DNA of 64,000 nucleotides from Escherichia phage BUCT632. A program made the position numbers and the translations under genes. Location: sequence record PQ488502.1, one strand, 5' to 3'. Below the pieces are notes generated by a model. That model was given only the letters and a program-made list of their open reading frames with translations. It made no database searches and had not been told where the DNA came from. The stretch's first letter is position 1. Every line of letters starts with the position of its first letter. Positions 1-29,232 of this stretch are shown here, piece after piece.

Positions 1-1656
1 GCCCTTCTCATTCAGTTCATCCGGTCCACAGTCAGATACTAGGATAGATTTCTCACCCATCTCTAGAGAAGTCTGAAGTGCAACCCAAATACTGGATTCA
101 TCCGGGAACTCATAAGCATGAGCTTTTGACAGCATCTTACGGTGATGATTATAAAATGCTACTGGTTTATCAAACTCAATCAAAGAACCATACGCTTCAA
201 TTGTTTCTGCACTAATATCCCCATCAGATAATATAATAATTTTTGCAGTTGCAAGAATGTCCCGAAGAACCTGTATACATTCACGACGTTGTTTAACAAC
301 CGGGGCGAATAATAGGTCATTCATTACAGCATCACATTCATCGATAAAGATTACATCAATTTGACCAATAAAACTCTTGAACTTATGCAAAGAGTGAATA
401 GTTGTGGACATACGGTCAATAGCACCACGCTTAAAATTAAGCATATCTACGGACTTATCATATTGTCCTGCACTAAATTTCTTAGCATTTGAAGATACCA
501 GTGCTCGAGTATTGGTAATTGCTAAGAAATTACCTTTAATAACTCCTGAATCTAACCAACGCACAACCGCCGTAGTTTTACCTGTACCTAGACTTGCTTT
601 TACAAAAGTCATATAACCTTCTGGTGGTACAGTATTTAATTTCAAGAAGTTATCAGTTTCTAGAGAATTAGTTTCTAGCTTTTTAAGTGGAATACCTTTT
701 AAAACATCAGGTATATCACGTTTAGAATTATTAACAAATGCTTTCAGAGCCTGTTTACGACCGTTATTAAAGTAATCTTGAATATTACGACTATTATCTT
801 TAGTTGCAATATATTCTGATAAGGCTGGGCGGATTTCTTTTTCTAGCCATGCAAAATCAACACCATCCTCCAAAGCTCTGTGATAGAGTTTAGGTATAAT
901 ACGTAGATACACTCCATCCTCAGCTTCTTCTAGTTCGCTGATAGTTTCCTCTACTTTATCAGAGGCAGCTTTTTTACCCTTAATTTGATCGAGTAAAGAG
1001 TAAAACTCCTCCTTAAACTCACCTCTAGTTGTTTCATAGTCAACCAGATTATTGGGTAAATTTACTTTAGAACCCTTAACAAATACCAGACGTGAAGCAC
1101 CCTCCGCCTTAAACGGATCTACTATACCATCGGTAAATAACGGATCTGCAAAATAGTGGAGCTGTACAGAAGAGTAATAAGCTAAGTCGGCAATATCAAA
1201 GCCATACTTTTGTCTACTACTTTCGTTGATAGATGTAAATAAGAATTTGATTTGACCCTGAGTTACTTTAACATTAGACTCTAGTATTAAGTGCATTCGG
1301 ATACCTGGTTTTAGCCCAGCCGAAGACGATGCATGAGCGATAAACCCTGCATCAAGAGGAAACATATCCTCACTAATACTATTTAACATCCTAATAATAT
1401 GTCGAGCCATGCCAACAAGATCAAACTTGTTACAACCACCTGTATCTACAATACCATCCACGTCCATTGCAATTATATGGCTTGGATTAGATACATTAAA
1501 GTTGCCCTTCTTACGCCGCACATTATTTTTAGGTGCAAGACATCGACCTCGTACCGCAACGATATGAGGGTCAGACGTTAAACGTCTCATAAGAGGAAGC
1601 ATTTCTACTAGGGTTTGAGGATCAACTTCATCAATTACATCAAACTTGAAGGGCAT
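1..1656 (-). CDS. P-loop NTPase, putative replication primase/helicase-like protein (C-terminus beyond window start)
   Basis: Open minus-strand frame from ATG at 1656 to window edge, not in ORF track because no stop in window; Walker A GTGKTT and Walker B IFIDECD seen in translation; RBS-like AAGGT upstream. Confidence 0.55.
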   Translation of the reverse strand, partial: MPFKFDVIDEVDPQTLVEMLPLMRRLTSDPHIVAVRGRCLAPKNNVRRKKGNFNVSNPSHIIAMDVDGIVDTGGCNKFDLVGMARHIIRMLNSISEDMFPLDAGFIAHASSSAGLKPGIRMHLILESNVKVTQGQIKFLFTSINESSRQKYGFDIADLAYYSSVQLHYFADPLFTDGIVDPFKAEGASRLVFVKGSKVNLPNNLVDYETTRGEFKEEFYSLLDQIKGKKAASDKVEETISELEEAEDGVYLRIIPKLYHRALEDGVDFAWLEKEIRPALSEYIATKDNSRNIQDYFNNGRKQALKAFVNNSKRDIPDVLKGIPLKKLETNSLETDNFLKLNTVPPEGYMTFVKASLGTGKTTAVVRWLDSGVIKGNFLAITNTRALVSSNAKKFSAGQYDKSVDMLNFKRGAIDRMSTTIHSLHKFKSFIGQIDVIFIDECDAVMNDLLFAPVVKQRRECIQVLRDILATAKIIILSDGDISAETIEAYGSLIEFDKPVAFYNHHRKMLSKAHAYEFPDESSIWVALQTSLEMGEKSILVSDCGPDELNEKG

Positions 1657-2396
1657 TGAAGCTGGTTTACCTTCAGGATGCTTTGAGGAAAATCTTTTAG
1701 CAAAAAGATAGTCTTCTGCTTTAACTTCTCGCCAATTGCCTGTGGCTAAATCGCGATGAAATCCTGCATGACCTTGTAGGATTGAGAACACAACAATACT
1801 CCTGTGTTGGAAATGAAATAAGTTTTCTTTAGGACTATTCAGAAAGAATAGAACAACTGTTACTGTCAATTTCTCAACAAATTAATTGCAAATACTGAAG
1901 TGGGGTGGCAACTTCCACTTTCACGCTGCGCTGCTGCCTCATTATACCGCACAAATCCTTGAGGATGGCCGCTAAGCCAGATTTGCTCACCTAATGCTTC
2001 ATATACTAGCTCATACTAGATGCAATATAACTTACAGAATCACGTCTCGGTAGTTTTTCACTCCTCCCATCTCACTTCACAACCACCTCATACTAGGTTG
2101 CTTCGAGGCCTTACCAGGGTTCCTATGGGACGCAGATCGCTAAGTATTCTATTAACTATTTGTTTAAAAACTAACACGTAACAGTTAAAACAACCCTTAA
2201 TGGGGCAGCCTAACTGTTCCGTATCGCGGATTGTAAACAAGAAAAATTAGCAAAATCAATTTTTACTAATGTCTCTCAATTCAATATAAATATTATATCA
2301 AGATTTTGGGCATCATGCAAGTAAATTTTTCCCAAAGGTGCTATCAGTGTCTTTGAGCATAGAGAAAACCGAGCCAAAATGACTCGGTTATATGGA

Positions 2397-2591
2397 TTAA
2401 TCATAAAAAAGACCACGAATAGTATTAGCAAATTTAAGTATAATAGCGCGGTTTGAGCTACTTAACTTTTTAATATCGAAAGTGGGATCGGTCAAATATC
2501 TTGCCATAAATTTTACTTGCTTAGCTGAAAGTTGGCCCTTATTCCACTTTTTAATCTTACCATAACATACCCAATATTCTTTATTCATCAT
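2397..2591 (-). CDS. hypothetical protein
   Basis: 64 aa ORF in same-strand operon, start overlaps upstream stop. Confidence 0.4.
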   Translation of the reverse strand: MMNKEYWVCYGKIKKWNKGQLSAKQVKFMARYLTDPTFDIKKLSSSNRAIILKFANTIRGLFYD

Positions 2592-2973
2592 TTAATCCCG
2601 GAACATATATCCCAACACTATTTAATTGTTCTCTAGCTTCTTTGAGAATATCTGGAGTGTACTCCCAAATATCATCTTCCACCTGTAAAAGATGGGGCGA
2701 ACAACCATCATCCGGCACACGACATATGGCCAGACCACGTGGATGGAACAAAGAGAAATTTAGGGCAACAATCAAGCCCATAGCAGACAACTCATTCCAA
2801 TCCAATTCCCATTCCCCGGCGTATCCAGACAGGAAAACGCCAATGCACGGATCATCTGTTTGCTGCTCAGGAAAAGTGAAGGAGGCTTGTCTTACCCCCA
2901 ACCAACGTTGTAGCAGCTTTTCCGCACGCTTCACCAAACTAGGATCAATCTGACGCCAATATACTTGTTCCAT
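2581..2973 (-). CDS. hypothetical protein, paralog of adjacent gene
   Basis: 130 aa; shares PCIG and W-x-EL-x-MGL-x-ALN-x-LF-x-P motif block with 2983..3411 product. Confidence 0.55.
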   Translation of the reverse strand: MEQVYWRQIDPSLVKRAEKLLQRWLGVRQASFTFPEQQTDDPCIGVFLSGYAGEWELDWNELSAMGLIVALNFSLFHPRGLAICRVPDDGCSPHLLQVEDDIWEYTPDILKEAREQLNSVGIYVPGLNDE

Positions 2974-2982
2974 TGTGCCCCC

Positions 2983-3411
2983 TTAGGCAGTTAAACCCGG
3001 AATTTGATAACCAAAACGGCGAAGTTTTTGGATACCATCATTTACTTCTTCCGGTGAGTAAGACCAACCATAACGTTCATTAACCTGGAAACCAGGAGAT
3101 TCACTAGTTTTATAGTTAACAACGAGGCGATGCTTAGCAGGCATAAACAGCTTATAGTTTAACGCAAAAACTAAGCCCATTTCATCTAACTCTTTCCAGC
3201 CTACAATCTCTTCAAGACCCTCCTCTACCTGAACAATTAAACCAATACAGGGAGCCTCATCAATATCATCTTTAAAAGCAAAGGAGATTTCATTATTCTC
3301 ACACCATATTTTCAAGGAGTTAATAGCCTCATTATACAGGCTAGCGGGGAGAGTACGCCAAAAGTTAACTAAAATTGGGTTAGCTTCTTTAGAGAATACA
3401 TTATTGAACAT
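2983..3411 (-). CDS. hypothetical protein, paralog of adjacent gene
   Basis: 142 aa; tandem duplicate of 2581..2973 product (same conserved motif order). Confidence 0.55.
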   Translation of the reverse strand: MFNNVFSKEANPILVNFWRTLPASLYNEAINSLKIWCENNEISFAFKDDIDEAPCIGLIVQVEEGLEEIVGWKELDEMGLVFALNYKLFMPAKHRLVVNYKTSESPGFQVNERYGWSYSPEEVNDGIQKLRRFGYQIPGLTA

Positions 3412-3413
3412 AT

Positions 3414-3926
3414 TTACACCTTAAATTGTTGCAAGGATTTACACATTTCAAGATCTGGGCTAAATTCTAGCATATAGCTAACAGCTTTTAAATCTTGAAG
3501 ATTTATCCCAGTCCTACCATTGACTATAACCGTTGGATACTGATACATCATAGCACCGGCATCATCCAGCACACACCAATGTTTAAGCTTATGCTTTTCC
3601 ACGAAGCGAAGAACAGAATTACCCCTAGATAATCCACCACCAGTAAAATCCGTTGTACCAAGAAAACGATCGATAAGACCTAATCCGGTCATAATCTGAA
3701 CGTTCTCCATCTCATTCCGGACAGAGAACCATGAGGATACCCCAACAATCATTATCGAGGAAGGACGAATAAAATCTTGAAAAGCCTTGAGAAGCGGTTT
3801 GAAAACCCAGTCACTCCCAAAGAAAATCTTTTCATCATCAGGTGCATGATGGTGGGAGATGCTCGAATTGAGCACCCCATCAATGTCCAGAAAAATAATT
3901 GGAGTATTACTTATTTCTTGACACAT
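3414..3926 (-). CDS. HAD-superfamily phosphatase-like protein
   Basis: N-terminal IIFLDIDGVL matches HAD motif I (DxDG[TV]); 170 aa. Confidence 0.55.
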   Translation of the reverse strand: MCQEISNTPIIFLDIDGVLNSSISHHHAPDDEKIFFGSDWVFKPLLKAFQDFIRPSSIMIVGVSSWFSVRNEMENVQIMTGLGLIDRFLGTTDFTGGGLSRGNSVLRFVEKHKLKHWCVLDDAGAMMYQYPTVIVNGRTGINLQDLKAVSYMLEFSPDLEMCKSLQQFKV

Positions 3927-4722
3927 AAGGTCTACCCTCTAAATGAGCTTCTACACGAGCAATAAAATCAGGGTCACTGAAAGCATCTACCGCACCCTTA
4001 CTCCAATAAGGAATACCACGTTCTTCCAGCTGGTACATCTCACTACGAGTCATACCTTGATAGCCTGGCTCTGCTGCTAGGGCACTATCATAGTAGTTAA
4101 CAACCATAAGTTTCGCAGCAGTCAAATTAAGAACAGGAAATAATTCCCAGTAGAAGTTAATTACTTGGTTAGAGCAACCAACCACAACGATCATATCTTG
4201 ACTGGTAATATCATCAAAAACATTGTACATTTCTGCGTATGCAGGAGCATGCTCTCCAAAGAAGATTACATTAGGTTTAACCCATTTATAATCATCTGGA
4301 TCAATAGAATTATATCCTACATCAATAATCCGTTTATTGCTACTATTGTAGCTATCAGATACAACAACCTCTTTTAAATATCCGTGAATGTGCAGAATGT
4401 CACTATGTGGAACGCCAGCACGCTCAATAAGGTCATCAACGTTGGTAGTTAAGTTTACTACTTGACCTGGATATTGTTTATACCATTCACCAATACGCAA
4501 ATGTGCAAGATTGGGTTCAACAGTTTTTAGCTCTTCACGACGCTTGTTGTAAAACATATGGGTTTTATGATAAAAATTACCACGAAAGGCATGAATATTA
4601 CATACTTCTTCTAGATCATAATCATCCCACAATGCTTTACCACTAGCAGTATCAGTACGAAAAGCTCGTACACCACTTTCAACACTCAAACCTGCACCGC
4701 TAATAATAATTAATCTACGCAT
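3907..4722 (-). CDS. Sir2-family NAD-dependent deacylase-like protein
   Basis: Sirtuin motifs GAGLSVESGVRAFR, TTNVDDLIERAG, HIHG; no CxxC zinc ribbon seen. Confidence 0.7.
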   Translation of the reverse strand: MRRLIIISGAGLSVESGVRAFRTDTASGKALWDDYDLEEVCNIHAFRGNFYHKTHMFYNKRREELKTVEPNLAHLRIGEWYKQYPGQVVNLTTNVDDLIERAGVPHSDILHIHGYLKEVVVSDSYNSSNKRIIDVGYNSIDPDDYKWVKPNVIFFGEHAPAYAEMYNVFDDITSQDMIVVVGCSNQVINFYWELFPVLNLTAAKLMVVNYYDSALAAEPGYQGMTRSEMYQLEERGIPYWSKGAVDAFSDPDFIARVEAHLEGRPYVSRNK

Positions 4723-4936
4723 TTTTCACCTGTTCTCTGAAGTTTTGCCCAATACTATCTAACAGCTCAGCTAATTCTTTATTACCTTTCTCCATTAAGG
4801 TATTAGCAATAACTTCTAGCATAGTAGCGCAAGATTCAACACCATCCTTATAGCCAGTTTCCCAGTGCTGCATTAATGCGTTTTCCAAAGCGGCGTTTAA
4901 ACCCTTATCTGGTAGCATCGGCTTCGAGAATGCCAT
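4715..4936 (-). CDS. hypothetical protein
   Basis: 73 aa ORF, overlapping start/stop with neighbours (translational coupling). Confidence 0.45.
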   Translation of the reverse strand: MAFSKPMLPDKGLNAALENALMQHWETGYKDGVESCATMLEVIANTLMEKGNKELAELLDSIGQNFREQVKNA

Positions 4937-5108
4937 AAAGTTTCTCCTCTAGTTCCATAACACGATTTTCATAAGAGGCACGCAACTTTTCAATTGCCAG
5001 CGCACGCACTGTAACCTCATTAGAATTAATAGCTAATTGGGCCAGGTCTTCTGTTTCCATACGTCCGTTGTAAATTAAGCGATATTTAAGATGTTTTACA
5101 TTTTTCAT
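4905..5108 (-). CDS. hypothetical protein
   Basis: 67 aa ORF in operon. Confidence 0.45.
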   Translation of the reverse strand: MKNVKHLKYRLIYNGRMETEDLAQLAINSNEVTVRALAIEKLRASYENRVMELEEKLYGILEADATR

Positions 5109-5317
5109 TCTCGTTCCTCAAACATTTCAATTTCTGCATTAGCAATAGAAAGGGCGGGCTCAGATAAGCACAATCCCATCCTAGGATCGATCTTCCCTTC
5201 GCCAATCCAAGTACTTACTAAACATAATTTAGTTATATCCTCACGGAGAATCGAACCATATGCCCCAGAATCCATAATAAAATAGATACGTTCTTTATCT
5301 ACCTTGTGAACTCTCAT
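5105..5317 (-). CDS. hypothetical protein
   Basis: 70 aa ORF, ATGA overlap with downstream gene. Confidence 0.45.
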   Translation of the reverse strand: MRVHKVDKERIYFIMDSGAYGSILREDITKLCLVSTWIGEGKIDPRMGLCLSEPALSIANAEIEMFEERE

Positions 5318-5375
5318 AGCTTTCTCCTCTCAAATTTATAAATCAATTATACATAAGTTTTAGCTAGAAAGCAAA

Positions 5376-5410
5376 TAAAATAAAAGCCAGGTTGACTAGC
5401 AACCCGGCTG
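5376..5410 (-). terminator. putative rho-independent terminator after nrdD
   Basis: GC-rich imperfect hairpin followed by T-run on minus strand. Confidence 0.4.
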
Positions 5411-7291: not shown

Positions 7292-7400
7292 TATACTCTC
7301 CTTCTCTAACTAAGACTACTATTATAACTCATTCGAGGGCGGATGTCAACAATATTTTACTATAAAGTTCTGTAACATGATCTGAGTCAAAAAATTTTAT

Positions 7401-7429
7401 TTGCCAACCTCTATTAAAAATTGTATAAT
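7401..7429 (+). promoter_or_regulatory. sigma70-type promoter (TTGCCA-17-TATAAT)
   Basis: A/T-rich upstream tract, -35/-10 hexamers with 17 bp spacer. Confidence 0.5.
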
Positions 7430-20863: not shown

Positions 20864-20935
20864 CGGGGTGTAGTCTAAGGGAGAGGCAGGAGTCTTCTAA
20901 ATTCCTTTATGCAGGTTCGAATCCTGTCACCTCGG
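20864..20935 (+). tRNA. tRNA-Arg(TCT)
   Basis: manual cloverleaf: acceptor CGGGGTG/CACCTCG, anticodon loop CTTCTAA, T-loop TTCGAAT, CCA encoded. Confidence 0.8.
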
Positions 20936-20972
20936 CCAATTTTATTAACTGTAACTAAAACAAAGGAAACAT

Positions 20973-21920
20973 ATGTTTAATACTAAAAATATGAAAGAAC
21001 TGACTTCTGAGCAGAAAGTAATTCGTACTATTAAACGTTGGGGTATTGGTGCTGTAGTTGGTTTAGCAGGCTTGATTCTAGCTTTTAATTCATATACTAT
21101 TGTTTCTGATGGTACGGTTAAAACCCAAACATTCCTGGGTAAAGTAGATCCTAATCCAGTATTGCCTGGTTTCCATCTTGTAAATCCGTTTGCATCTTTC
21201 GATACTTTTAGTACAAAAGATATTGCTGTAAAATTAGATAAACTTCAGGTTCCTAGCCAGGATAAGTTTAAATCCACTGTTGACCTGACTGTTATGTTGC
21301 AGTTTGATGGTTCTAAGGCACCGATTAACCGTATTAACGCAGGTACTCAGGATCAGGCACTAGACAAGTATGTAACTGAAAAATTATTGTCTACTATTCG
21401 TGAGTTTGGTAAGTCTGTACCTAAAGCACAAGATTTGTTTGATGCTAAAATTCAGGCTCAATTACAAACTGCAATTCAACAGGAAGTTGAAGAGTATGCA
21501 CGCCCATATGGTTACACAGTTAAGCAGGTGTTCCTTCAGGATATTACTCTGCCACCAGTAATCATGGAGCAGGTACAGAATACCAAAGTTCGTGAAGAGC
21601 AAGTTAATGCTGCGAAAGCTGAACTGGCTCGTGTTGAACAGGAAGCACAGCAGAAGGTTAAACAAGCAGAAGCAGATCGTGAAGCTCGTAATAACCAAGC
21701 TATTGCTAATGAACGTGACGCAGATGCTAAACTGTATGCAGCTAAGAAAGAAGCTGAAGCTAACGCCGCACTGCAACGTACCATTACTCCTGAGATGATT
21801 CGTTGGAAACAACTGGAAGTTGAAATGATTCGTGCTCAGAAATATCAAGGTGGTGTACCGCAGACTGTGGTTGGCACTGGCTATGATGGCCAAATGATTA
21901 TGGATATGCGTAATAAATAA
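20973..21920 (+). CDS. SPFH/band-7 (prohibitin-like) domain membrane protein
   Basis: N-terminal TM helix then SPFH-like region and long Ala/Gln/Glu-rich coiled coil. Confidence 0.65.
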   Translation: MFNTKNMKELTSEQKVIRTIKRWGIGAVVGLAGLILAFNSYTIVSDGTVKTQTFLGKVDPNPVLPGFHLVNPFASFDTFSTKDIAVKLDKLQVPSQDKFKSTVDLTVMLQFDGSKAPINRINAGTQDQALDKYVTEKLLSTIREFGKSVPKAQDLFDAKIQAQLQTAIQQEVEEYARPYGYTVKQVFLQDITLPPVIMEQVQNTKVREEQVNAAKAELARVEQEAQQKVKQAEADREARNNQAIANERDADAKLYAAKKEAEANAALQRTITPEMIRWKQLEVEMIRAQKYQGGVPQTVVGTGYDGQMIMDMRNK

Positions 21921-21945
21921 TACCCGCATGTAACATCTGAAGTAA

Positions 21946-21979
21946 GCCCTGCGTTCCCTGGAGAGCGCAGGGTTTTTCT
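21946..21979 (+). terminator. rho-independent terminator
   Basis: CCCTGCG...CGCAGGG hairpin plus TTTTT. Confidence 0.6.
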
Positions 21980-21998
21980 GTATTTAAGATAAAAGAAA

Positions 21999-22032
21999 AG
22001 CCCCTAAGTCTTTCGACTAGGGGCTTTATTGT
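21999..22032. terminator. bidirectional terminator between convergent genes
   Basis: GCCCCTAAG...CTAGGGGC hairpin with flanking A/T runs. Confidence 0.5.
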
Positions 22033-22244
22033 TTGGTTCTTTAGAACCATATACTCTTATTACAGCAACCACCCATACGGGAGGCCAATCTTGACTGAAA
22101 ATCTACTCTAGGGGGCAGGATAAGAGTAGGCTTAAAGGCAAACGGATTGAACGCCGGTATTTGCGTAAACATTGCTGGAGAGCAACAACGTGCTACAGGC
22201 ATTGGGCAGCACGAAACAGATTTTCTGCAACACATAATTCCTCC

Positions 22245-22661
22245 TTAGGAGTTATTACCACCATTTTGAGCTTTTGCAACTTGGCTTTGGCAGAAGCTAT
22301 TAAACTTACCCATAAGTGATACAAGCTGTTTCCCATCCTCTGTCTTTGCGAAGTCTTCGAAAAGGGCTAGTACTGCCTGTCCTTCCGCAGAAACCTGCGA
22401 TTGTTGGGTTTGTTGCTGAACTTGCTGCTGCGGCACCTGTTGCTGCATTTGTTGAGGCATTTGCGACTGCCCGCTCATTTGCTGCATCATTTGTATAGGA
22501 CTCACACTTCCAGGGTTTTGCTGGAGTTGTTGCTGCATCTGTTGCGCTTCTGCTAAACGCTGTTGCAATTGTTGTAAGTAGGGGTTATCCAGACCCGGAA
22601 TGGGCTGCTGGGAGCCCATACTTTGATTAAGTCCGTTATTTACAAAACCATATTTACTCAT
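22245..22661 (-). CDS. Gln-rich low-complexity protein
   Basis: 138 aa, >30% Q, repetitive QQ(M/L)QQ tracts. Confidence 0.5.
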   Translation of the reverse strand: MSKYGFVNNGLNQSMGSQQPIPGLDNPYLQQLQQRLAEAQQMQQQLQQNPGSVSPIQMMQQMSGQSQMPQQMQQQVPQQQVQQQTQQSQVSAEGQAVLALFEDFAKTEDGKQLVSLMGKFNSFCQSQVAKAQNGGNNS

Positions 22662-22682
22662 AATGGGCTCCTCCCCTTAATA

Positions 22683-23732
22683 TTAAGCCGGCAGTTTAGC
22701 CTGCAGACCAGCCAGAGTCTGAGTGATAGCACCAAGACTTAAAGCGATTTGATTAATTACCTGACCGTTAGCACCGCTACCTGCAGCGATTGCTTCACGT
22801 AGGCGACATGCATCTAACTCATCCTGGATACGCGCAGTAGTTACACCAGCGATCGCAGTCTGAAGTTCACAGCAACATTCAGCGATCTGACGTTCCAGAG
22901 AGTTCTGGTTAGCACACATCTGAGCCTGAACAGCGGCAAACTGGTTATTAGTTTGTAAAGTCTGCTGGAAAGCGATCTGTGCAGAATCAAACTTATCTTG
23001 TGCACGAGCTATCTGGTTAGCTGCGAAAGATTGATCAATCTGGCGAGAAAGATCGAACTGACCCTGAATAACGTTGCGAGTTTCCTGGCAGATCTGATTA
23101 GATAGATTAGCACCTGTACCATAGATCGTAGTTAGTACAGACTGAGTATCACGGCTCTGGTTTTGGGATGTCTGGCTAAAACCATTGTTAACTGCGCTTA
23201 AAACAGCTCCAGTACCCTGGTTAGCTTCTGTACGAGTAGTGTTAATAGCTGCTAGAATACTAGCGGTATCTTGGTTCTGAAGTACTGCATCAACTGCGGT
23301 ACCTTCACCAACTACACCACGTCCACCGAATCCACCGAAACCACCGAATCCGCCTGTTAATAGAGCACCGATTAGGATAGCTCCGAATAGTCCCATACCT
23401 TCACCACCGAAAGCACCTGCGTTTGCTGGGTAACCACCCAGTAGGCCAGGGAAGCCACTAGTGAATACGTTTACTGGTTCTTGCATTTTATGTTTTCCAT
23501 ATTTATGACAATGTTCATCATCATCTTCTTCATCATCTTCATCGTGTTCGCGATGTTTCTCTTCGTAGGCTCTGACCTTCTCCCACTTTTTCTTATCTGA
23601 TTCCTCGTGACGGTGCAGTTCTGCTGCAACGCTAGCGACGGTCTCAGGACTCTTAGCTACTTCTTCTGTCATTTTTTGACACCTCCTAGTATATAGAAAA
23701 TGTGTGTCTCTTTGATCACTCATCCATAACAT
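22683..23732 (-). CDS. hypothetical protein with acidic tract and glycine-zipper segment
   Basis: DEDDEEDDDE tract, GGFGGFGGFGG hydrophobic Gly-rich segment, Q/N/A-rich C-terminal half; true start may be an internal Met. Confidence 0.5.
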   Translation of the reverse strand: MLWMSDQRDTHFLYTRRCQKMTEEVAKSPETVASVAAELHRHEESDKKKWEKVRAYEEKHREHDEDDEEDDDEHCHKYGKHKMQEPVNVFTSGFPGLLGGYPANAGAFGGEGMGLFGAILIGALLTGGFGGFGGFGGRGVVGEGTAVDAVLQNQDTASILAAINTTRTEANQGTGAVLSAVNNGFSQTSQNQSRDTQSVLTTIYGTGANLSNQICQETRNVIQGQFDLSRQIDQSFAANQIARAQDKFDSAQIAFQQTLQTNNQFAAVQAQMCANQNSLERQIAECCCELQTAIAGVTTARIQDELDACRLREAIAAGSGANGQVINQIALSLGAITQTLAGLQAKLPA

Positions 23733-23879
23733 ATACTTTACACTACCCCAGCGAAAATGTCAAGGGGTCTTTAAAAATTGCCCCCGGATTTTTAGTGGGG
23801 TCACAAATTTTGGTCCTCACCACTTATCTGCTACCCTTAAGTGCCCTATGATTTTCCTCTAAAAAGTTAAAAAATTTGA

Positions 23880-23908
23880 TTGCTTGAATGCTAAATTCTC
23901 TGTATAAT
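23880..23908 (+). promoter_or_regulatory. T5-type early promoter cassette (PN25-like)
   Basis: AAAAAATTTGATTGCTT..17..TATAAT..ATAAATTTGAGAGAGGA closely resembles T5 PN25 (from memory). Confidence 0.7.
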
Positions 23909-23938
23909 ATATCTATAAATTTGAGAGAGGAACCAAAT

Positions 23939-24457
23939 ATGAATGTTGATGAGCTAACACAGCACCTCTTATCTAGAGGATTTGATACAGATAAATATCA
24001 TTGCTGGTTAAGTCCGGAAGGGTGGCTAACAGTCCCGTTGTATGATTTCTCTGGAATGTTGAGGGGCTATCAAACTTATAATCCTTCTGCTCCAAAAGGT
24101 CATGGTAAGTGCCCATTTGAAGCTAAATACTTTACTTATTCTACTACACAGTGTGTATGGGGACTAGAAACTCTCAATGGAGATGAAAAAGTAGTATTGA
24201 TCGCTGAATCTGTATTTAAGGCAGTTGCGTTACATAATGCGGGTTATCCAGCCCTGGCAATGTTGGGTTCTTCTCCAGGAAAAGCGTTATTAAAGCAACT
24301 GAAATTACTACCTTTTAAATTGGTAGCTGTTGGAGACAATGATCCCGATGGTGAAAAATTTGCTAGACAATTAAATGGATTTGTTTCTCCTGTAGATGTA
24401 GATGAGATGTCTACCGAAAACTTGAAAAATTTTCTTGCTATGAAGCTAAATTTCTAA
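23939..24457 (+). CDS. hypothetical protein
   Basis: ORF starting MNVDELTQ after RBS of promoter cassette. Confidence 0.55.
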   Translation: MNVDELTQHLLSRGFDTDKYHCWLSPEGWLTVPLYDFSGMLRGYQTYNPSAPKGHGKCPFEAKYFTYSTTQCVWGLETLNGDEKVVLIAESVFKAVALHNAGYPALAMLGSSPGKALLKQLKLLPFKLVAVGDNDPDGEKFARQLNGFVSPVDVDEMSTENLKNFLAMKLNF

Positions 24458-24463
24458 TATAAT
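24435..24463 (+). promoter_or_regulatory. early promoter overlapping CDS 3' end
   Basis: TTGCTA-17-TATAAT reading into tRNA-Ser. Confidence 0.5.
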
Positions 24464-24478
24464 ATATCTTATAAATTC

Positions 24479-24564
24479 GGAAGAATAGCATAACGGTATT
24501 GCAGCAGATTGCTAATCTGTCGGTTTGAAATATAGCCTTGTGGGTTCGATTCCCACTTCTTCCG
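24479..24564 (+). tRNA. tRNA-Ser(GCT)
   Basis: acceptor GGAAGAA/TTCTTCC, anticodon loop TTGCTAA, long variable arm, T-loop TTCGATT, CCA encoded. Confidence 0.75.
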
Positions 24565-24573
24565 CCAGATTTT

Positions 24574-24648
24574 GGTTCTCAAGCTCATATGGTATGAGCA
24601 CCCGGCTCATAACCGGAAGGTACGTAGGTTCGAATCCTCGGGGAGCCA
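24574..24648 (+). tRNA. tRNA-Met(CAT), initiator-like
   Basis: anticodon loop CTCATAA; three G:C pairs next to loop; weak T stem; CCA encoded. Confidence 0.65.
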
Positions 24649-24669
24649 CCAATTAAATAGAGGTCACAA

Positions 24670-24858
24670 ATGGATCTATATATAGTTTATGTTGTGTTTA
24701 TTCAAGATAGAGAATACCCGGGTGAATATAAAAAAGGATATAGGTTAGCCAGAGCTACCTCTGAAGCCCAAGCTATGGATAAAGTGGCGGATTATATGAT
24801 TACAGTAGAAAACGTACACTATATCGACTACCTTGAAGCCTCAAAAGTAATTGACTAA
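24670..24858 (+). CDS. hypothetical protein
   Basis: 62 aa ORF between tRNAs. Confidence 0.4.
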   Translation: MDLYIVYVVFIQDREYPGEYKKGYRLARATSEAQAMDKVADYMITVENVHYIDYLEASKVID

Positions 24859-24865
24859 ACTACAC

Positions 24866-24939
24866 GGGGGTGTAATCGAATTGGCATAGGTACTGGACTT
24901 AAAATTCAGGTTTTGTGGGTTCGAATCCCACCACCCCTA
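24866..24939 (+). tRNA. tRNA with anticodon TAA (Leu-decoding, short variable arm)
   Basis: acceptor GGGGGTG/CACCCCT, anticodon stem CTGGA/TTCAG, loop CTTAAAA, T-loop TTCGAAT, CCA encoded. Confidence 0.55.
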
Positions 24940-24956
24940 CCAAATTAAGGAAATAA

Positions 24957-25124
24957 GATGTATAGACATCCACCTCCGCCAACACGTCGTTCTAGGGAAG
25001 TCGTCCTTATGGAATTGACTAAAAACTTCAAGGCAACTCTTGAAGATAGAGATCTGGGCACGGATGAAGACATTGATTTTATTTGTAGACTATTAAAGAT
25101 GAAACTGGAGAAACAACATGGCTA
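24957..25124 (+). CDS. hypothetical small protein
   Basis: 55 aa ORF with AAGGAAA RBS. Confidence 0.3.
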
Positions 25125-25324
25125 ATCCTGAAATTACCGCACAACGTTTCATGCTTAAAGGCATGATTGCTGAGGCAGGTATAACTCAAGAGGTTGCAGA
25201 TTTTCATAAGCAATTTCTTGACATTATAACTCTAGCTAAAGAGACTGGAGAAAAAGAACATGGAGCGGCAATTATGGCTATATCTCTTATTAGTCTAGAC
25301 TTGGCTGAAGAATCTGGAGTTTAG
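25118..25324 (+). CDS. hypothetical protein
   Basis: 68 aa ORF. Confidence 0.45.
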   Translation: MANPEITAQRFMLKGMIAEAGITQEVADFHKQFLDIITLAKETGEKEHGAAIMAISLISLDLAEESGV

Positions 25325-25354
25325 CTCCTCCAAACAGAATTTTTAAAAATGTAC

Positions 25355-25384
25355 TTGCCTTTTGCTTTAAATTTCTGATATAAT
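25355..25384 (+). promoter_or_regulatory. T5-type early promoter cassette
   Basis: TTGCCT-18-TATAAT then ATAAATTGATGAAGGAG leader. Confidence 0.6.
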
Positions 25385-25414
25385 AGTTATATAAATTGAT
25401 GAAGGAGTTAACGA

Positions 25415-25690
25415 ATGCAAAATCGTGTTATAGCTGCTGGTATTGAAAGTGCAATCTGTAAATCCTGGGAAGGCTGGGAAGGTGAGATTGAATGGCTTTA
25501 TTTCTACGATGTAGAACTTCTGCCGGAAATTAAAGCTAAATGTATTGAAGCTGGCATGGCTCCAGATGCAAAAGCTGATATTGATATTTCAATGTCTGAA
25601 CTTAAAGGTCGTGTAATCACTGTTAGTGATGAGGGCGAAGAAGTTTTTGAACTTCCATTCTCCTTAACTGTCACTCCTAAGTTCGACTAA
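25415..25690 (+). CDS. hypothetical protein
   Basis: 91 aa acidic ORF. Confidence 0.5.
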   Translation: MQNRVIAAGIESAICKSWEGWEGEIEWLYFYDVELLPEIKAKCIEAGMAPDAKADIDISMSELKGRVITVSDEGEEVFELPFSLTVTPKFD

Positions 25691-25726
25691 CTAATACAGC
25701 ATTGGGCAAGTTCTTTAAAATTTGAC

Positions 25727-25755
25727 TTGCTCAGTGCCTTAAAACTTGATATAAT
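25727..25755 (+). promoter_or_regulatory. early promoter upstream of tRNA-Tyr
   Basis: TTGACT/TTGCTC -35, TATAAT -10; ~110 nt leader with hairpin precedes tRNA. Confidence 0.5.
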
Positions 25756-25879
25756 AGTTATCTAATTTGGAAACATATCTGAATGAGAAGTAATTAGGCG
25801 AGTTGCTTTTAGGGGTAAAGTCAGGAAATCCTGAAATATTCCACCTTGAGTTTAACCGACTTACTTTTCATTCAAATAT

Positions 25880-25957
25880 GGGGGATTGGCTCAGCGGCGA
25901 CGGCGCCTGGCTGTAGACCGGGTATATCACGCGGAGGTTCGAGTCCTCCATCCCCCA
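25880..25957 (+). tRNA. tRNA-Tyr(GTA)
   Basis: acceptor GGGGGAT/ATCCCCC, anticodon loop CTGTAGA, 10-nt variable region, T-loop TTCGAGT, CCA encoded. Confidence 0.7.
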
Positions 25958-25978
25958 CCAAATTACTAAGGAAGTAAT

Positions 25979-26524
25979 ATGCACAATAAGTTAATAAATG
26001 AGCTTCAAAAAAGACAGATAATAACAAAAACTAAGGAGTTTGATATAACTCCAGATTTAATAGTTGAATGCTCGAAAGTTTACTTAGAGTTAAGTAATAC
26101 AAAGGCTAAGAAAGTCTCCTTAGGAGATCTTAGATATAATGTTAAACTATTGTGCTTATCCTTAATTAAATTTAAGCAAAAAAATAAACTTCCCATAAAA
26201 GAAGGCTTCATATATTTTATAGCAAATAAGGCCTGGCCCAATTATTTTAAGATTGGTATGTCAGCTAACCCAAAGAAACGCTTAGCAAACTATCAAACAT
26301 ATAGCCCTTTTAGGGACTATACAATGCTACACTGGTCTTTCTGGTTTGATAGAAAGGAAGGCAAAAAGTTTGTCCATAGCCTCTATCAAGATAGGGATCA
26401 TGAATGGGTTAAGTTGCCTCGAAGAAAACTAAATAAAATATTTGAACAAATTAATAAACTTTCTGGCTTGGAACATTTAGTACAGAAAGTTAATAAAGAA
26501 ATAGTTAATGCACCTATCGTCTAA
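25979..26524 (+). CDS. T5orf172/GIY-YIG-like domain protein
   Basis: GFIYFIANKAW...YFKIGMSANPKKRLANYQT resembles GIY-YIG/T5orf172 motif. Confidence 0.55.
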   Translation: MHNKLINELQKRQIITKTKEFDITPDLIVECSKVYLELSNTKAKKVSLGDLRYNVKLLCLSLIKFKQKNKLPIKEGFIYFIANKAWPNYFKIGMSANPKKRLANYQTYSPFRDYTMLHWSFWFDRKEGKKFVHSLYQDRDHEWVKLPRRKLNKIFEQINKLSGLEHLVQKVNKEIVNAPIV

Positions 26525-26581
26525 TGGTTAGGACATCAGGATTTCAATCTGAGAATCGGAGTTCAATTCTCCGTGGGTGTA
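26510..26581 (+). tRNA. tRNA-Glu(TTC)
   Basis: acceptor GCACCTA/TGGGTGT, D arm GTCT/GGAC, anticodon loop ATTTCAA, T-loop TTCAATT, CCA encoded; 5' end overlaps CDS stop region. Confidence 0.7.
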
Positions 26582-26593
26582 CCAATTTCTGCA

Positions 26594-26666
26594 TTCCTAG
26601 AGTGTTACTGGACAGCATGTCGGTCTCCAAAACCGTACGGTCTAGGTTCGAGTCCTAGTAGGTTTG
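26594..26666 (+). tRNA. tRNA-Trp(CCA), acceptor pairing uncertain
   Basis: anticodon arm TCGGT-CTCCAAA-ACCGT, T arm CTAGG-TTCGAGT-CCTAG, CCA encoded; 5' acceptor strand not cleanly complementary. Confidence 0.5.
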
Positions 26667-26675
26667 CCAAAATTT

Positions 26676-26747
26676 GCACCTTTAGCTGAGATGGATTAGC
26701 GCTTGCCTGAAGAGCTTGAGAGGTTCGTTCGATACGAACAGGGTGCA
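26676..26747 (+). tRNA. tRNA-Phe(GAA)
   Basis: acceptor GCACCTT/AGGGTGC, D arm GCTG/TAGC, anticodon loop CTGAAGA, T-loop TTCGATA, CCA encoded. Confidence 0.65.
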
Positions 26748-26767
26748 CCAAATTGAAGGAGCTGCTG

Positions 26768-27040
26768 ATGCATCCTGAAAACTTCTTTATTTACTGCGCG
26801 GATAAGTCGCTGAAACGTAGAATTAACAAAGTCTATCATTATCGTGCTAGTCAACAGCCTTATGTATACGCTTTTGACGGTGATCACATTCCACTAGAAC
26901 AATTATCTTGTGATTACATGATATTGAAGAACTTTGACGAGACGAAGATCTCAAGCGTTCATAATCGACAGAATCCATTAACGTGGAAATATAAGAAGAA
27001 AAAGAAAGGCATCAAATTCTTAAAAAATGTAGTTGCTTAG
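26768..27040 (+). CDS. hypothetical protein
   Basis: ORF starting MHPENFF 7 nt after AAGGAG. Confidence 0.45.
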   Translation: MHPENFFIYCADKSLKRRINKVYHYRASQQPYVYAFDGDHIPLEQLSCDYMILKNFDETKISSVHNRQNPLTWKYKKKKKGIKFLKNVVA

Positions 27041-27061
27041 TTTCCAAAAGTTCTGTATAAT
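27033..27061 (+). promoter_or_regulatory. T5-type early promoter cassette driving tRNAs
   Basis: TTGCTT-17-TATAAT; cassette RBS followed by a 10-codon vestigial ORF running into tRNA-Cys. Confidence 0.6.
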
Positions 27062-27109
27062 AATTACATAAATTGAACTGGAGAAGCAACATGACAGAAC
27101 AAGATAAAT

Positions 27110-27182
27110 CGACCGTTGGCTGAATGGCTTAGGCGAAGGATTGCAAATCCTTTTTATGTGAGTTCAAATCTCATGCGGTCGT
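27110..27182 (+). tRNA. tRNA-Cys(GCA)
   Basis: acceptor CGACCGT/GCGGTCG, anticodon arm AAGGA-TTGCAAA-TCCTT, T-loop TTCAAAT, CCA encoded. Confidence 0.75.
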
Positions 27183-27337
27183 CCAATTTGCTGAAAGAAT
27201 TGTTAAATCAATTCAGGCACGCGTAGGAACACTGTCTCCGTAATTGAAAGATGGGGCACGGTTTGGAGAGGTATGCCGCTACACGCTACGGTGCTAACTC
27301 CGTCTAGGTGAAAATCCTAGTCAGCAATGTAAATTTA

Positions 27338-27417
27338 GGGTCGTTAGCCAAGCGGTTTGGCGGCGGATTGTTAATCCGTGTCGAAAGACAACGTAGGTTC
27401 GAATCCTACACGGCCCG
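27338..27417 (+). tRNA. tRNA-Asn(GTT) with extended variable arm
   Basis: acceptor GGGTCGT/ACGGCCC, D arm GCCA/TGGC, anticodon loop TTGTTAA, 13-nt variable hairpin, T-loop TTCGAAT, CCA encoded. Confidence 0.7.
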
Positions 27418-27522
27418 CCAAATTCTGTGTAGAGTTAAGTAAACCGGTAGCCAATCAGCTATCATTGCTGACATCGAATTCAGCCACAGATACCATTTTC
27501 ATTAATAACTGAGGAAACAAGC

Positions 27523-27708
27523 ATGTCCAAGAATGTAATTGCACAGTTAGAAGTTCATCGTGATAGCACTATCAACAATATTGAAGTTGAGAAGAAATAC
27601 ATCGAAGAACTTAAACATGATATACTAGTAAGTCTTAATCGTCTTAATGTACGAAAAGAGTTTCTTAAAGAACTTAATGCAGCTATTGAAAAACTCAAAG
27701 CTGAGTAA
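27523..27708 (+). CDS. hypothetical protein
   Basis: 61 aa charged ORF. Confidence 0.4.
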   Translation: MSKNVIAQLEVHRDSTINNIEVEKKYIEELKHDILVSLNRLNVRKEFLKELNAAIEKLKAE

Positions 27709-27717
27709 ATGAATTAT

Positions 27718-27791
27718 GCGACCGGGGCTGGCTTGGTAATGGTACTCCCCTGTCACGGGAGGGAATGTGGGTTCAAATCCCATCGGTCGCG
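27718..27791 (+). tRNA. tRNA-Asp(GTC)
   Basis: acceptor GCGACCG/CGGTCGC, anticodon arm CTCCC-CTGTCAC-GGGAG, T-loop TTCAAAT, CCA encoded. Confidence 0.8.
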
Positions 27792-27820
27792 CCAAACTAA
27801 ACTAGCACGAGAAAAATGCT

Positions 27821-28168
27821 ATGATTAATGCTAAAGAAGAATTGTTACTTGCCCTAAAGAATACTAATTCTGAAGTTAAGTGTATTAAGATAGAATTCGG
27901 TTATTATGGGGACAAAGAAGTTTGGGTATTACCCGTAGGTTATACAGAAAAAGATATTGAAGATTTTCTAAATAATCTAGACTTTAAATATGATTCTGGT
28001 TTCGGTGGACAATTGCTTTATGGTAACGTATGGTTTACTGATGGAACTTGGTTAGAACGTGGTGAATATGATGGTTCTGAATGGTGGGAGTATAAGACTA
28101 CACCAGCAATCCCTGAGGAATGCCGAACAATTAATGGTGAGGTAGATAATACTTTACGGTTAAACTAA
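27821..28168 (+). CDS. hypothetical protein
   Basis: 115 aa ORF. Confidence 0.5.
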   Translation: MINAKEELLLALKNTNSEVKCIKIEFGYYGDKEVWVLPVGYTEKDIEDFLNNLDFKYDSGFGGQLLYGNVWFTDGTWLERGEYDGSEWWEYKTTPAIPEECRTINGEVDNTLRLN

Positions 28169-28290
28169 TAAAATTTCAGTGCAGAACACGGAGCTAGCAA
28201 TTCGGAAGTGCTGACTCATGATAAGCTGCCTATGTACTTGCGAAGCGGTCGTGTCCAAGACTCGGACTCTTGCACTGAAAACAATCAAAC

Positions 28291-28411
28291 ATTCTAGCGT
28301 GGTTGATGGGGAAACCAGCTTGGCGAGGGCAGAAGCTCGTTCGATTCGAGTGAAAGAATGGTTCTCGTAAGTCCGCACAAGTGATAACAGGTTCGAGTCC
28401 TGTCTAGAATG
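28291..28411 (+). ncRNA. oversized tRNA-like RNA (~121 nt) with two T-arm-like hairpins
   Basis: complementary acceptor strands ATTCTAG/CTAGAAT, D arm TGGT-TGATGGGGAA-ACCA, hairpins CTCG-TTCGATT-CGAG and ACAGG-TTCGAGT-CCTGT; too long for a canonical tRNA. Confidence 0.35.
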
Positions 28412-28559
28412 ACACTATAAAGTTTACTTATTATGTAGGTTCCGGTAGATCGGCGGGTCTATTCTGGCATTTAAGAGGGGTCTCGCAAACTTCTTTGTCA
28501 GCCGTGGGGTTGGTAGCCTCCAGGCGGCCTACACAATAAGTAAATTTATTAAAAATTCA

Positions 28560-28588
28560 TTTGCTATTCTGCTTAATTCTCTGTATAA
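28560..28588 (+). promoter_or_regulatory. T5-type early promoter cassette
   Basis: AAAAATTCATTTGCTA..17..TATAAT. Confidence 0.6.
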
Positions 28589-28621
28589 TATATTTTATAA
28601 AGTGAAGAGAAGGAAAGCAAA

Positions 28622-28780: not shown

Positions 28781-28784
28781 TATT

Positions 28785-28859: not shown

Positions 28860-28868
28860 CCAAACAAT

Positions 28869-28943: not shown

Positions 28944-28965
28944 CCATTTTAATAGGGGATTTCGA

Positions 28966-29133: not shown

Positions 29134-29134
29134 A

Positions 29135-29210: not shown

Positions 29211-29232
29211 ACCAATTTCAAGAAAAACGCAG

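What the first reader, a model, noticed from the sequence alone, without database searches (positions are those of the whole stretch)
2581..4722. Tandem paralog pair of unknown function adjacent to HAD-like phosphatase and zinc-less Sir2-like protein
The 130-aa and 142-aa products share a conserved motif block (PCIG...W-x-EL-x-MGL-x-ALN-x-LF-x-P) and sit directly downstream of a HAD-like phosphatase and a Sir2-family protein lacking the CxxC zinc ribbon, all co-oriented with overlapping stops/starts. Sir2 domains act on NAD+, so this could be a phage NAD+/ADP-ribose manipulation or counter-defence module. The function is an open inference.
Basis: partly seen in the sequence, partly recalled or inferred. 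Interest (0 to 1): 0.6.

Follow-up and report, generated by a model that had tools for sequence, protein, structure and literature searches.

The report
T5 early operon: Sir2, HAD, DUF7415 pair
These four genes are the well-conserved T5.102–T5.107 early genes of a T5-like phage: a zinc-less sirtuin and a phosphatase already predicted in the literature to repair cut RNA, followed by two old duplicate copies of an uncharacterised phage-only domain (DUF7415) that elsewhere travels with DNA-replication genes, not with sirtuins.

Summary
On the minus strand a Sir2 protein (3907-4722), a HAD phosphatase (3414-3926) and two paralogs (2983-3411 and 2581-2973; 31% identity, E=1e-19) lie in one tight early operon of a Tequintavirus. 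They correspond to T5.102 and T5.105-T5.107.

The Sir2 keeps its catalytic motifs and has no zinc-binding cysteines. The Sir2 + 'Swiss-army-knife' HAD pairing in T5-like phages was already described by Iyer et al. 2022 and predicted to be a KptA-like, NAD+-dependent RNA end-healing system.

Both paralogs belong to Pfam DUF7415, and the model matches each half of each protein. AlphaFold models are confident (pLDDT 96 and 91) and share the same order of secondary-structure elements. No structural neighbour exists outside the family.

DUF7415 occurs in 866 phage records. It sits beside or is fused to P2 early replication genes (gpA, Cox, Orf83, Orf91), is fused to thymidylate kinase, and lies between nrdD and nrdG. 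It is found next to Sir2 only within Demerecviridae.

Paralog A keeps the family's conserved residues and B has lost half of them, yet both are under strong purifying selection. This suggests a heteromeric binding or adaptor module. Its function is still unknown. The four-gene NAD+ module idea is only partly supported.

The parts
5346..5374 (-). Promoter-like site (TTGCTT, 17-nt spacer, TATAAT) for the early operon, just downstream of the nrdD terminator
   Evidence: Read from the sequence. The stretch is conserved with the T5 reference, where a promoter is annotated at the same place. It falls below the threshold of the consensus scan (3 of 6 in the -35 hexamer).
4715..5317 (-). Three small overlapping ORFs (70, 67 and 73 aa) of unknown function that open the operon
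   Evidence: ORF list. They match phrog_20147, phrog_5236 and phrog_5827, all of unknown function, and have no Pfam family.
3907..4722 (-). Zinc-less Sir2-family protein (T5.102 ortholog), member of the phage sirtuin clade
   Evidence: PF02146 E=2.5e-25. The best PDB relative is E. coli CobB 1s5p, E=1.9e-17. The alignment shows GAGLS, FYNKRR (aligned to CobB FYNARR), TNVDD and HIHG conserved, with no Cys in the zinc module. Homologs occur in 993 phage records. dN/dS is 0.07-0.09.
3414..3926 (-). HAD-superfamily phosphatase of the 'Swiss-army-knife' RNA-repair type (T5.105 ortholog; often mis-annotated as Sir2)
   Evidence: PF18143 HAD_SAK_2 E=2.8e-20, covering profile positions 1-138 of 139. 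The DxD motif (FLDIDGV) and the later DD (VLDDAG) are visible in the sequence. dN/dS is 0.03. It has no PDB sequence relative.
2983..3411 (-). Paralog B (T5.106 ortholog): two-unit DUF7415 protein, the divergent copy
   Evidence: PF24187 E=5e-36. The N-half (72 bits) and core half (55 bits) each hit independently. AF2 gives pLDDT 90.9 with the same order of secondary-structure elements as A. It keeps only 9 of 20 family-conserved columns, with substitutions fixed across B orthologs. dN/dS is 0.05-0.07.
2581..2973 (-). Paralog A (T5.107 ortholog): two-unit DUF7415 protein, the canonical copy
   Evidence: PF24187 E=1.4e-31. The N-half (59 bits) and core half (54 bits) each hit independently. AF2 gives pLDDT 96.1 and pTM 0.89. 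It keeps 17 of 20 family-conserved columns. dN/dS is 0.06-0.11.
2397..2591 (-). Last small ORF of the operon (64 aa), function unknown
   Evidence: ORF list; phrog_29527, unknown function.
2367..2389 (-). Intrinsic-terminator-like hairpin closing the operon
   Evidence: Terminator scan: 10-bp stem with 5 GC pairs, followed by a T-rich tail. T5 has an annotated terminator at the equivalent place after T5.107.

Best explanation
The region is the promoter-to-terminator early operon of a T5-like phage and holds two functionally separable things. (1) Sir2 + HAD is the phage-sirtuin/'Swiss-army-knife' HAD pair. It is predicted (not shown) to heal RNA ends cut by host metal-independent nucleases. The HAD phosphatase would process terminal or cyclic phosphates. 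The sirtuin, like KptA/Tpt1, would use NAD+ to transfer away a 2'-phosphate. (2) The two paralogs are DUF7415 proteins. Each is built from two DUF7415 units packed into one compact alpha/beta domain. They were duplicated before Tequintavirus and Sugarlandvirus diverged and have been kept in the same order ever since. Paralog A retains the family's conserved polar constellation, while B has replaced half of it. I infer that they assemble into an A/B hetero-oligomer, the counterpart of the homo-oligomers expected for single-unit DUF7415 proteins. In this complex A would supply the canonical binding site and B a specialised partner surface. From its fusions and neighbours elsewhere, DUF7415 most likely acts as a self-associating binding or adaptor module of the phage DNA-replication and nucleotide-metabolism apparatus, not as an obligate sirtuin accessory. 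Shown here: gene structure, homology, fold confidence, purifying selection and distribution. Inferred: oligomerisation, the binding role and every biochemical activity.
For: The window is a Tequintavirus and the genes are orthologs of T5.102-T5.107. The Sir2-HAD neighbourhood and its RNA-repair prediction are published (PMC9503650). The same Sir2 clade sits beside RNA ligase 1, polynucleotide kinase, phosphoesterase and tRNA genes in rV5-like and PVP-SE1 phages. HAD-Sir2 linkage persists, in a different order and without DUF7415, in Pantoea phage AAS21. For DUF7415: both halves of both paralogs exceed the Pfam cutoff independently, and both AF2 models are confident with the same order of secondary-structure elements. 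Core-only family members superpose on residues ~56-120 at about 1 A. B-type and A-type orthologs, in the same order, are found in Sugarlandvirus. dN/dS is 0.05-0.11 for both, and A keeps 17 of 20 conserved columns against 9 of 20 for B. In 46 of 67 diverse loci the DUF7415 gene directly adjoins a gpA replication initiator, and in 11 it is followed by a Dam methylase. Sixteen are fused to DUF3850/ASCH (the P2 Orf91 type) and 16 to DUF5405 (the P2 Orf83 type). Other cases are a thymidylate kinase fusion, a position between nrdD and nrdG in T4-like Klebsiella phages, and a position next to the origin-binding protein gene in T5. A fusion to the Cox winged-helix N-terminus replaces the C-terminal helices that mediate Cox oligomerisation (PMC3936717). 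This fits a self-association role.
Against: No biochemical or genetic data exist for any of the four proteins, and the literature has nothing on DUF7415. The locus survey was seeded with one peptide pattern and is dominated by related P2-like prophages, so the 46-of-67 figure overstates independent support. Other contexts are loose: between head and tail genes in phiCTX, before the terminase in TW1, and in T4-like regions of small ORFs. Strongly conserved polar residues could mean catalysis or ligand binding rather than an adaptor role. My own profile-profile test did not confirm that the N-half and the core half are homologous, so the 'two units' reading rests on the Pfam model. No RNA ligase or PNK is encoded in this 64-kb window, so the RNA-repair pathway would need a ligase encoded elsewhere in the phage genome or by the host. 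By sequence the Sir2 is closest to the protein deacylases CobB and SIRT5. Heteromer formation was not modelled.
Confidence: 0.45

Rival explanations
1. Four-gene NAD+/ADP-ribose module. The DUF7415 pair works with Sir2 and HAD, for example by binding the ADP-ribose-derived product (ADPR-1''P, ADPR>P, O-acyl-ADPR) or by presenting the RNA or protein substrate. The whole set would counter a host defence.
For: The genes are tightly packed and co-transcribed, with 2-20 nt junctions between one promoter and one terminator. The Sir2-B-A order is kept across Tequintavirus, Epseptimavirus and Sugarlandvirus although protein identity falls to about 35-50%. In Aeromonas phage PX29 a HAD homolog and a DUF7415 gene lie 1.8 kb apart with RNA ligase 1 between them. 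DUF7415 has many conserved polar residues compatible with a small-ligand site.
Against: There is no co-occurrence outside Demerecviridae. None of 80 DUF7415 loci has Sir2 or HAD. No DUF7415 lies near Sir2 in rV5-like, PVP-SE1, phi92 or KVP40-like phages. AAS21 has HAD-Sir2 without DUF7415. Iyer et al. 2022 do not list the pair as part of the system in their text.
Confidence: 0.2
2. The Sir2 is an ordinary CobB-like protein lysine deacylase that resets host or phage protein acylation early in infection. HAD and the DUF7415 genes would be unrelated neighbours.
For: The best sequence relatives are the CobB and SIRT5 deacylases (E=1e-17 to 1e-12). The catalytic His, the NAD+-binding motifs and the class-III Y-x-x-R (FYNKRR aligned to CobB FYNARR) are conserved. 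This reading was proposed for the zinc-less Vibrio phage homologs (PMC5107563).
Against: All NCBIfam deacylase models score far below their cutoffs (about 101 bits against 243). The zinc module is missing. The clade recurs in RNA-repair neighbourhoods in three phage groups.
Confidence: 0.25
3. DUF7415 proteins are anti-defence inhibitors (Acr-like binders or signal sponges) that happen to sit in early operons.
Confidence: 0.1

Closest known systems
Phage sirtuin + 'Swiss-army-knife-like' HAD neighbourhood (type 3 of Iyer, Burroughs, Anantharaman & Aravind 2022, typified by Escherichia phage SP15)
   Same: It is the same phage group (T5-like), the same two families (PF02146 Sir2, PF18143 HAD_SAK_2) and the same adjacency. 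SP15's paralog-B ortholog is 93% identical to the window's (P0004).
   Different: Nothing differs in the Sir2-HAD part. The published description does not discuss the two downstream DUF7415 genes, and the function is a computational prediction only.
E. coli CobB / human SIRT5 (class III sirtuins; PDB 1s5p, 6rxj, 2b4y)
   Same: The Rossmann core, the GAGxS, N/D and HG catalytic motifs and the Y-x-x-R motif all align.
   Different: There are no zinc-binding cysteines. Scores are far below the NCBIfam equivalog cutoffs. A ~60-aa C-terminal extension is present. The genomic context points to RNA ends rather than acyl-lysine.
KptA/Tpt1 RNA 2'-phosphotransferase (functional analogy only)
   Same: The proposed chemistry is the same: NAD+-dependent removal of an RNA 2'-phosphate as ADP-ribose 1''-2'' cyclic phosphate.
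   Different: The fold is unrelated (KptA belongs to the ART superfamily), and the activity has not been demonstrated for any phage sirtuin.
Pfam DUF7415 (PF24187) / PHROG 2502, 3954, 33705, 1812
   Same: Both paralogs are clear members (108-123 bits).
   Different: The T5-type proteins carry two matches to the 53-residue model plus a C-terminal helix with a G-[FY]-x-[IV]-P-G-L tail. Most family members are single-unit proteins of 65-100 aa or fusions.
P2 early-operon accessory genes Orf83 (DUF5405), Orf91 (DUF3850/ASCH) and Cox
   Same: In P2 relatives, DUF7415 is fused to exactly these proteins and flanks the gpA replication initiator. The T5.106 annotation already noted similarity to an 'ORF91'.
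   Different: P2 itself has no DUF7415 in this region, and T5-like phages have no gpA. The shared feature is the early replication-region context, not the partner.
AcrIC4 anti-CRISPR (PDB 8dfo_M)

Membership tests
Sir2 family (PF02146) | Profile score above Pfam's gathering threshold | tested here: met
   89.9 bits against a cutoff of 24, covering profile positions 1-178 of 180.
Sir2 family (PF02146) | NAD+-binding GAGxS motif, conserved N/D and catalytic His (HG) | tested here: met
   GAGLS, TNVDD and HIHG align with CobB's GAGIS, QNIDN and HMHG.
Sir2 family (PF02146) | Four-cysteine zinc-binding module | tested here: not met
   There is no Cys between the catalytic His and the FGE motif; the only cysteines are C41 and C183. 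The same was noted earlier for KVP40-type phage sirtuins (PMC5107563).
CobB-type protein deacylase (NCBIfam equivalogs) | Score above the curated equivalog or subfamily cutoff | tested here: not met
   The best score is 101 bits against a cutoff of 243 (NF001753), and 90 against 320 for NF040867.
Phage sirtuin RNA-repair clade (Iyer et al. 2022) | Conserved neighbourhood with RNA end-processing enzymes (here a SAK-type HAD) and no adjacent Macro domain | tested here: met
   HAD_SAK_2 overlaps the Sir2 stop by 20 nt, and no Macro domain is found in the operon's proteins. The same clade sits next to Rnl1, PNK and a phosphoesterase in rV5 and PVP-SE1 types.
Phage sirtuin RNA-repair clade (Iyer et al. 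2022) | NAD+-dependent removal of RNA 2'-phosphate | not testable with these tools
   This needs a biochemical assay. No ligase or PNK partner was found in this window.
HAD superfamily, HAD_SAK_2 (PF18143) | Profile score above the gathering threshold, with the catalytic DxD motif I and the acidic motif IV | tested here: met
   73.5 bits against 27.5, covering profile positions 1-138 of 139. FLDIDGV and VLDDAG are read from the translation.
DUF7415 (PF24187) | Profile score above the gathering threshold | tested here: met
   Paralog A scores 108.8 bits and B 123 bits against a cutoff of 27. Each half scores 54-72 bits on its own.
DUF7415 (PF24187) | Conserved core signature DWNE-S--GL---IN---LHP-GLA--R----G-S-G------DG-WEY | tested here: inconclusive
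   Paralog A keeps 17 of 20 conserved columns. Paralog B keeps only 9 of 20, with fixed substitutions.
Defence-type Sir2 effectors (ThsA, DSR1/2, Sir2-HerA, pAgo-associated) | Match to PADLOC models, or fusion or adjacency to SLOG, HerA or pAgo partners | tested here: not met
   No PADLOC Sir2 model matches. The only hit is a spurious E=0.018 match to a type I restriction enzyme model.
Phage NAD+ reconstitution pathways (NARP1/2/3) | Adps/Namat, Nampt/Nmnat or NadR/PnuC-type enzymes | tested here: not met
   None of the operon's proteins hits such families in Pfam, NCBIfam or PHROGs. The NARP3 components are described in PMC13464706.

The most novel reading that the evidence does not exclude
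DUF7415 is a previously unrecognised fold that forms oligomeric pockets for a nucleotide- or ADP-ribose-derived small molecule. In T5-like phages the A/B heteromer would capture or deliver the product or substrate of the neighbouring sirtuin/HAD pair. That would make the operon a four-component NAD+-linked counter-defence system, and the stand-alone 65-100-aa DUF7415 proteins a new, widespread class of phage 'sponges' or sensors.
Probability: 0.1. Interest if true: 0.7.

Novelty: already known. Interest (0 to 1): 0.33.

Why it matters
The genes themselves are not new. They are 95% identical to those of hundreds of sequenced T5-like phages, the Sir2-HAD pairing is published, and the paralogs are catalogued as a Pfam DUF. 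What this analysis adds is a clearer target. DUF7415 is present in about 1.7% of phage records across T5-, T4- and P2-like lineages. It has a confidently predicted fold with no known structural relative and a strongly conserved polar signature, and no function has been assigned to it. Its recurrent attachment to early replication and nucleotide-metabolism genes, and the canonical/degenerate paralog pair in model phage T5, make it experimentally tractable. The T5 operon is also a convenient place to test the still unproven idea that phage sirtuins repair RNA.

Tried and rejected
- **Internal duplication.** My own hhalign of the N-half profile against the core profile was not significant (probability below 1%). 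The two-unit architecture therefore rests on the Pfam model hitting each half separately.
- **Literature.** Searches for DUF7415, PF24187, the PHROG ids and the T5 locus tags returned nothing.
- **P0035.** This 718-aa 'homolog' with 13 matched stretches is made of perfectly identical repeats and looks like an assembly artefact, so I excluded it.
- **Window 1-2400.** The apparent lack of ORFs there is simply the origin-binding/primase gene running off the window edge.
- **MazG-like fusion.** The N-terminal domain I suspected in P0083 was not confirmed by Pfam, so I do not use it.
- **Defence-system Sir2 membership.** Rejected, because PADLOC finds nothing.
- **Alignment-based locus search.** The first attempt, with the full alignment, failed for lack of a conserved stretch. 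I repeated it with core-only members, which biases the sample towards P2-like prophages.
Full report
**1. What is there**

The window is a Tequintavirus (T5-like phage). Bases 2300-5400 match 446 phage records, with about 95% identity to the best ones. The neighbouring genes are nrdD, phoH, nrdA and a cluster of 22 tRNA genes.

On the minus strand a promoter-like site (TTGCTT-17-TATAAT, 5374-5346) follows the nrdD terminator. It is conserved with the promoter annotated in T5. After it come, in order:
- three small ORFs (5317..4715);
- a Sir2 protein (4722..3907);
- a HAD protein (3926..3414);
- paralog B (3411..2983);
- paralog A (2973..2581);
- a 64-aa ORF (2591..2397);
- a terminator hairpin (2389-2367).

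The junctions between genes are 2-32 nt overlaps or gaps, and the genes have Shine-Dalgarno-like sequences. In the T5 reference these are T5.102 (Sir2), T5.105 (HAD, mis-annotated as Sir2), T5.106 (B) and T5.107 (A). They are followed by a terminator and by the origin-binding protein gene T5.108. That last gene is the ORF that runs off the left edge of the window.

All four genes are under strong purifying selection against T5 and SIA3lw (dN/dS 0.03-0.11).

**2.

The paralogs share 31% identity over 124 residues (E=1e-19), and the quoted motifs are present. Pfam assigns the Sir2 to PF02146 and the HAD to PF18143, 'HAD domain in Swiss Army Knife RNA repair proteins'.

Aligned to E. coli CobB (1s5p), the Sir2 keeps GAGLS, TNVDD, the catalytic HIHG and the class-III Y-x-x-R (FYNKRR aligned to FYNARR). 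It has no cysteine where CobB binds zinc.

**3. Sir2 and HAD are already described**

Zinc-less phage sirtuins, with T5 named as a carrier of a homolog, were noted in 2016 (PMC5107563). Iyer et al. 2022 (PMC9503650, sec. 3.7.3) define a distinct phage sirtuin clade and three conserved neighbourhoods. [quoted passage not shown] SP15 is a close relative of this window (P0004).

They predict that the sirtuin acts like KptA and removes RNA 2'-phosphates using NAD+. My checks are consistent with this:
- The clade is found in 993 phage records.
- In rV5-like and PVP-SE1 phages it sits among RNA ligase 1, polynucleotide kinase, phosphoesterase and tRNA genes.
- Pantoea phage AAS21 keeps HAD and Sir2 together in a different order.

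Two caveats apply. The window encodes no RNA ligase or PNK homolog. By sequence, the nearest characterised enzymes are protein deacylases, although all NCBIfam deacylase models score far below their cutoffs. No PADLOC defence model matches.

**4. The paralogs are DUF7415 proteins**

Both hit PF24187 strongly. Scanned separately, the N-terminal half and the core half of each protein each exceed the cutoff (54-72 bits against 27). By the curated model, then, each protein holds two DUF7415 units. My own profile-profile comparison of the two halves was not significant, so the internal duplication stays probable rather than proven.

AlphaFold2 with a 58-59-sequence alignment gives confident models: A at pLDDT 96.1 and pTM 0.89, B at 90.9 and 0.82. 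Both have the same order of elements, beta-alpha-beta-beta-beta-alpha-alpha-beta-beta-alpha.

The fold has no recognisable relative:
- Foldseek against the PDB: best E=0.3.
- BFVD: only DUF7415 proteins. Single-unit members superpose on residues ~56-120 at about 1 A.

**5. Distribution and context of DUF7415**

An exhaustive HMMER search of 1.84 billion cluster representatives finds only 66 clusters at E of 1e-3 or better. tblastn finds the domain in 866 of 50,697 phage records.

Contexts seen in annotated phages:
- a 77-aa gene between nrdD and nrdG in T4-like Klebsiella phages;
- next to rnlA in Aeromonas phage PX29;
- near a Nudix hydrolase, a dCMP deaminase or a Dam methylase in others;
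- between head and tail genes in phiCTX.

I also surveyed 80 IMG/VR loci (pattern-seeded, rich in P2-like prophages), of which 67 gave usable gene calls:
- In 46 of the 67 the gene directly adjoins a gpA replication initiator.
- In 11 it is followed by a Dam methylase.
- Sixteen are fused to DUF3850/ASCH and 16 to DUF5405. These are the P2 Orf91 and Orf83 positions flanking gene A.

Further fusions join DUF7415 to thymidylate kinase and to the winged-helix N-terminus of Cox. In the Cox fusion it replaces the C-terminal helices that mediate Cox oligomerisation (PMC3936717).

**6. Is the pair part of the Sir2 system?**

Comparative evidence says not necessarily.
- None of the 80 DUF7415 loci has a Sir2 or HAD relative.
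- Sir2 in rV5-like, PVP-SE1, phi92 and KVP40-like phages has no DUF7415 within 6-12 kb.
- AAS21 has HAD-Sir2 without DUF7415.
- Sugarlandvirus has Sir2-B-A without HAD.

The linkage is confined to Demerecviridae, where it may simply reflect inherited gene order. Cooperation in T5 is not excluded. The operon is tight, and the order survives divergence down to about 35-50% identity.

**7. The two copies are not equivalent**

Of 20 columns conserved in at least 75% of single-unit family members, paralog A keeps 17 and paralog B keeps 9. B's replacements (N to K, S to D, H to M, G to K/N, L to H, A to R, D to R) are fixed in all B orthologs.

A-type and B-type orthologs are distinguishable in Sugarlandvirus and occur in the same order, so the duplication is old. 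Both copies are constrained.

I infer a hetero-oligomer in which A carries the canonical site and B a specialised surface. This would be analogous to the homo-oligomers expected for single-unit proteins. The inference is untested.

**8. Verdict**

The genes and families are already known, and the function of DUF7415 is not. Interest is modest, at about 0.33. The value lies in flagging DUF7415 as a widespread phage domain with an orphan fold and in a tractable experimental handle in T5. The most novel reading not excluded is that DUF7415 is a new class of small-molecule binders cooperating with the sirtuin. I put that at about 10% probability.

Noticed in passing
window 20864-32781 (+): A cluster of 22 tRNA genes, typical of T5-like phages. 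It is relevant background for any tRNA-repair role of the Sir2-HAD pair.
   Followed up: no
window 3414-3926 and 2581-3411; L001, L005: Misleading annotations are propagating in public records. The HAD phosphatase is labelled 'Sir2 (NAD-dependent deacetylase)' (T5.105, phrog_18062). The DUF7415 paralogs are variously labelled 'tail tube protein', 'exonuclease' or 'Phage exonuclease (ACLAME 70)'.
   Followed up: partly
window 3907-3926; L005 17244-17602; L001 5452-5543: The Sir2-HAD junction is variable among close relatives. There is a 20-nt overlap here, a 90-nt gap in phage SIA3lw, and two extra small ORFs (T5.103, T5.104) in T5.
   Followed up: partly
window 7321-7349 (-) and 7401-7429 (+): Divergent promoter-like sites lie between nrdD and phoH: a perfect 12/12 sigma-70 consensus facing nrdD and an 11/12 site facing phoH.
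   Followed up: no
L002 3480-3713: In T4-like Klebsiella phages a 77-aa single-unit DUF7415 gene is wedged between the anaerobic ribonucleotide reductase genes nrdD and nrdG, overlapping both. In T5-like phages the DUF7415 pair also lies downstream of nrdD.
   Followed up: partly
P0053 (from the representative search): A natural fusion joins the P2 Cox winged-helix DNA-binding N-terminus (Pfam positions 1-56 of 87) to DUF7415, in place of the Cox C-terminal oligomerisation helices.
   Followed up: partly
P0035 (from the representative search): A 718-aa predicted protein is made of 13 perfectly identical ~53-aa repeats that match the C-terminal segment of the paralog profile. It is most likely an assembly artefact of a looped contig.
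   Followed up: partly
window 2642-2953 (+): A 103-aa TTG-initiated ORF lies antisense inside paralog A. It is probably spurious, given the strong coding signal on the minus strand.
   Followed up: no
window 3907-4722 (Sir2 residues ~57-62): The zinc-less Sir2 keeps the class-III sirtuin Y-x-x-R motif (FYNKRR aligned to CobB FYNARR), which in CobB and SIRT5 binds the carboxylate of succinyl- or malonyl-lysine. It could equally bind a phosphate if the enzyme acts on RNA 2'-phosphate (the phosphate idea is my inference).
   Followed up: partly
L086 1661-2164 and 3989-4228 (Aeromonas phage PX29): A homolog of the T5 HAD (E=1e-19) and a single-unit DUF7415 gene lie 1.8 kb apart in a T4-like phage, with nrdA.1, denA and RNA ligase 1 between them and no Sir2. 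This echoes the old T5 annotation notes pointing to Aeh1 ORF303c and ORF299c.
   Followed up: partly
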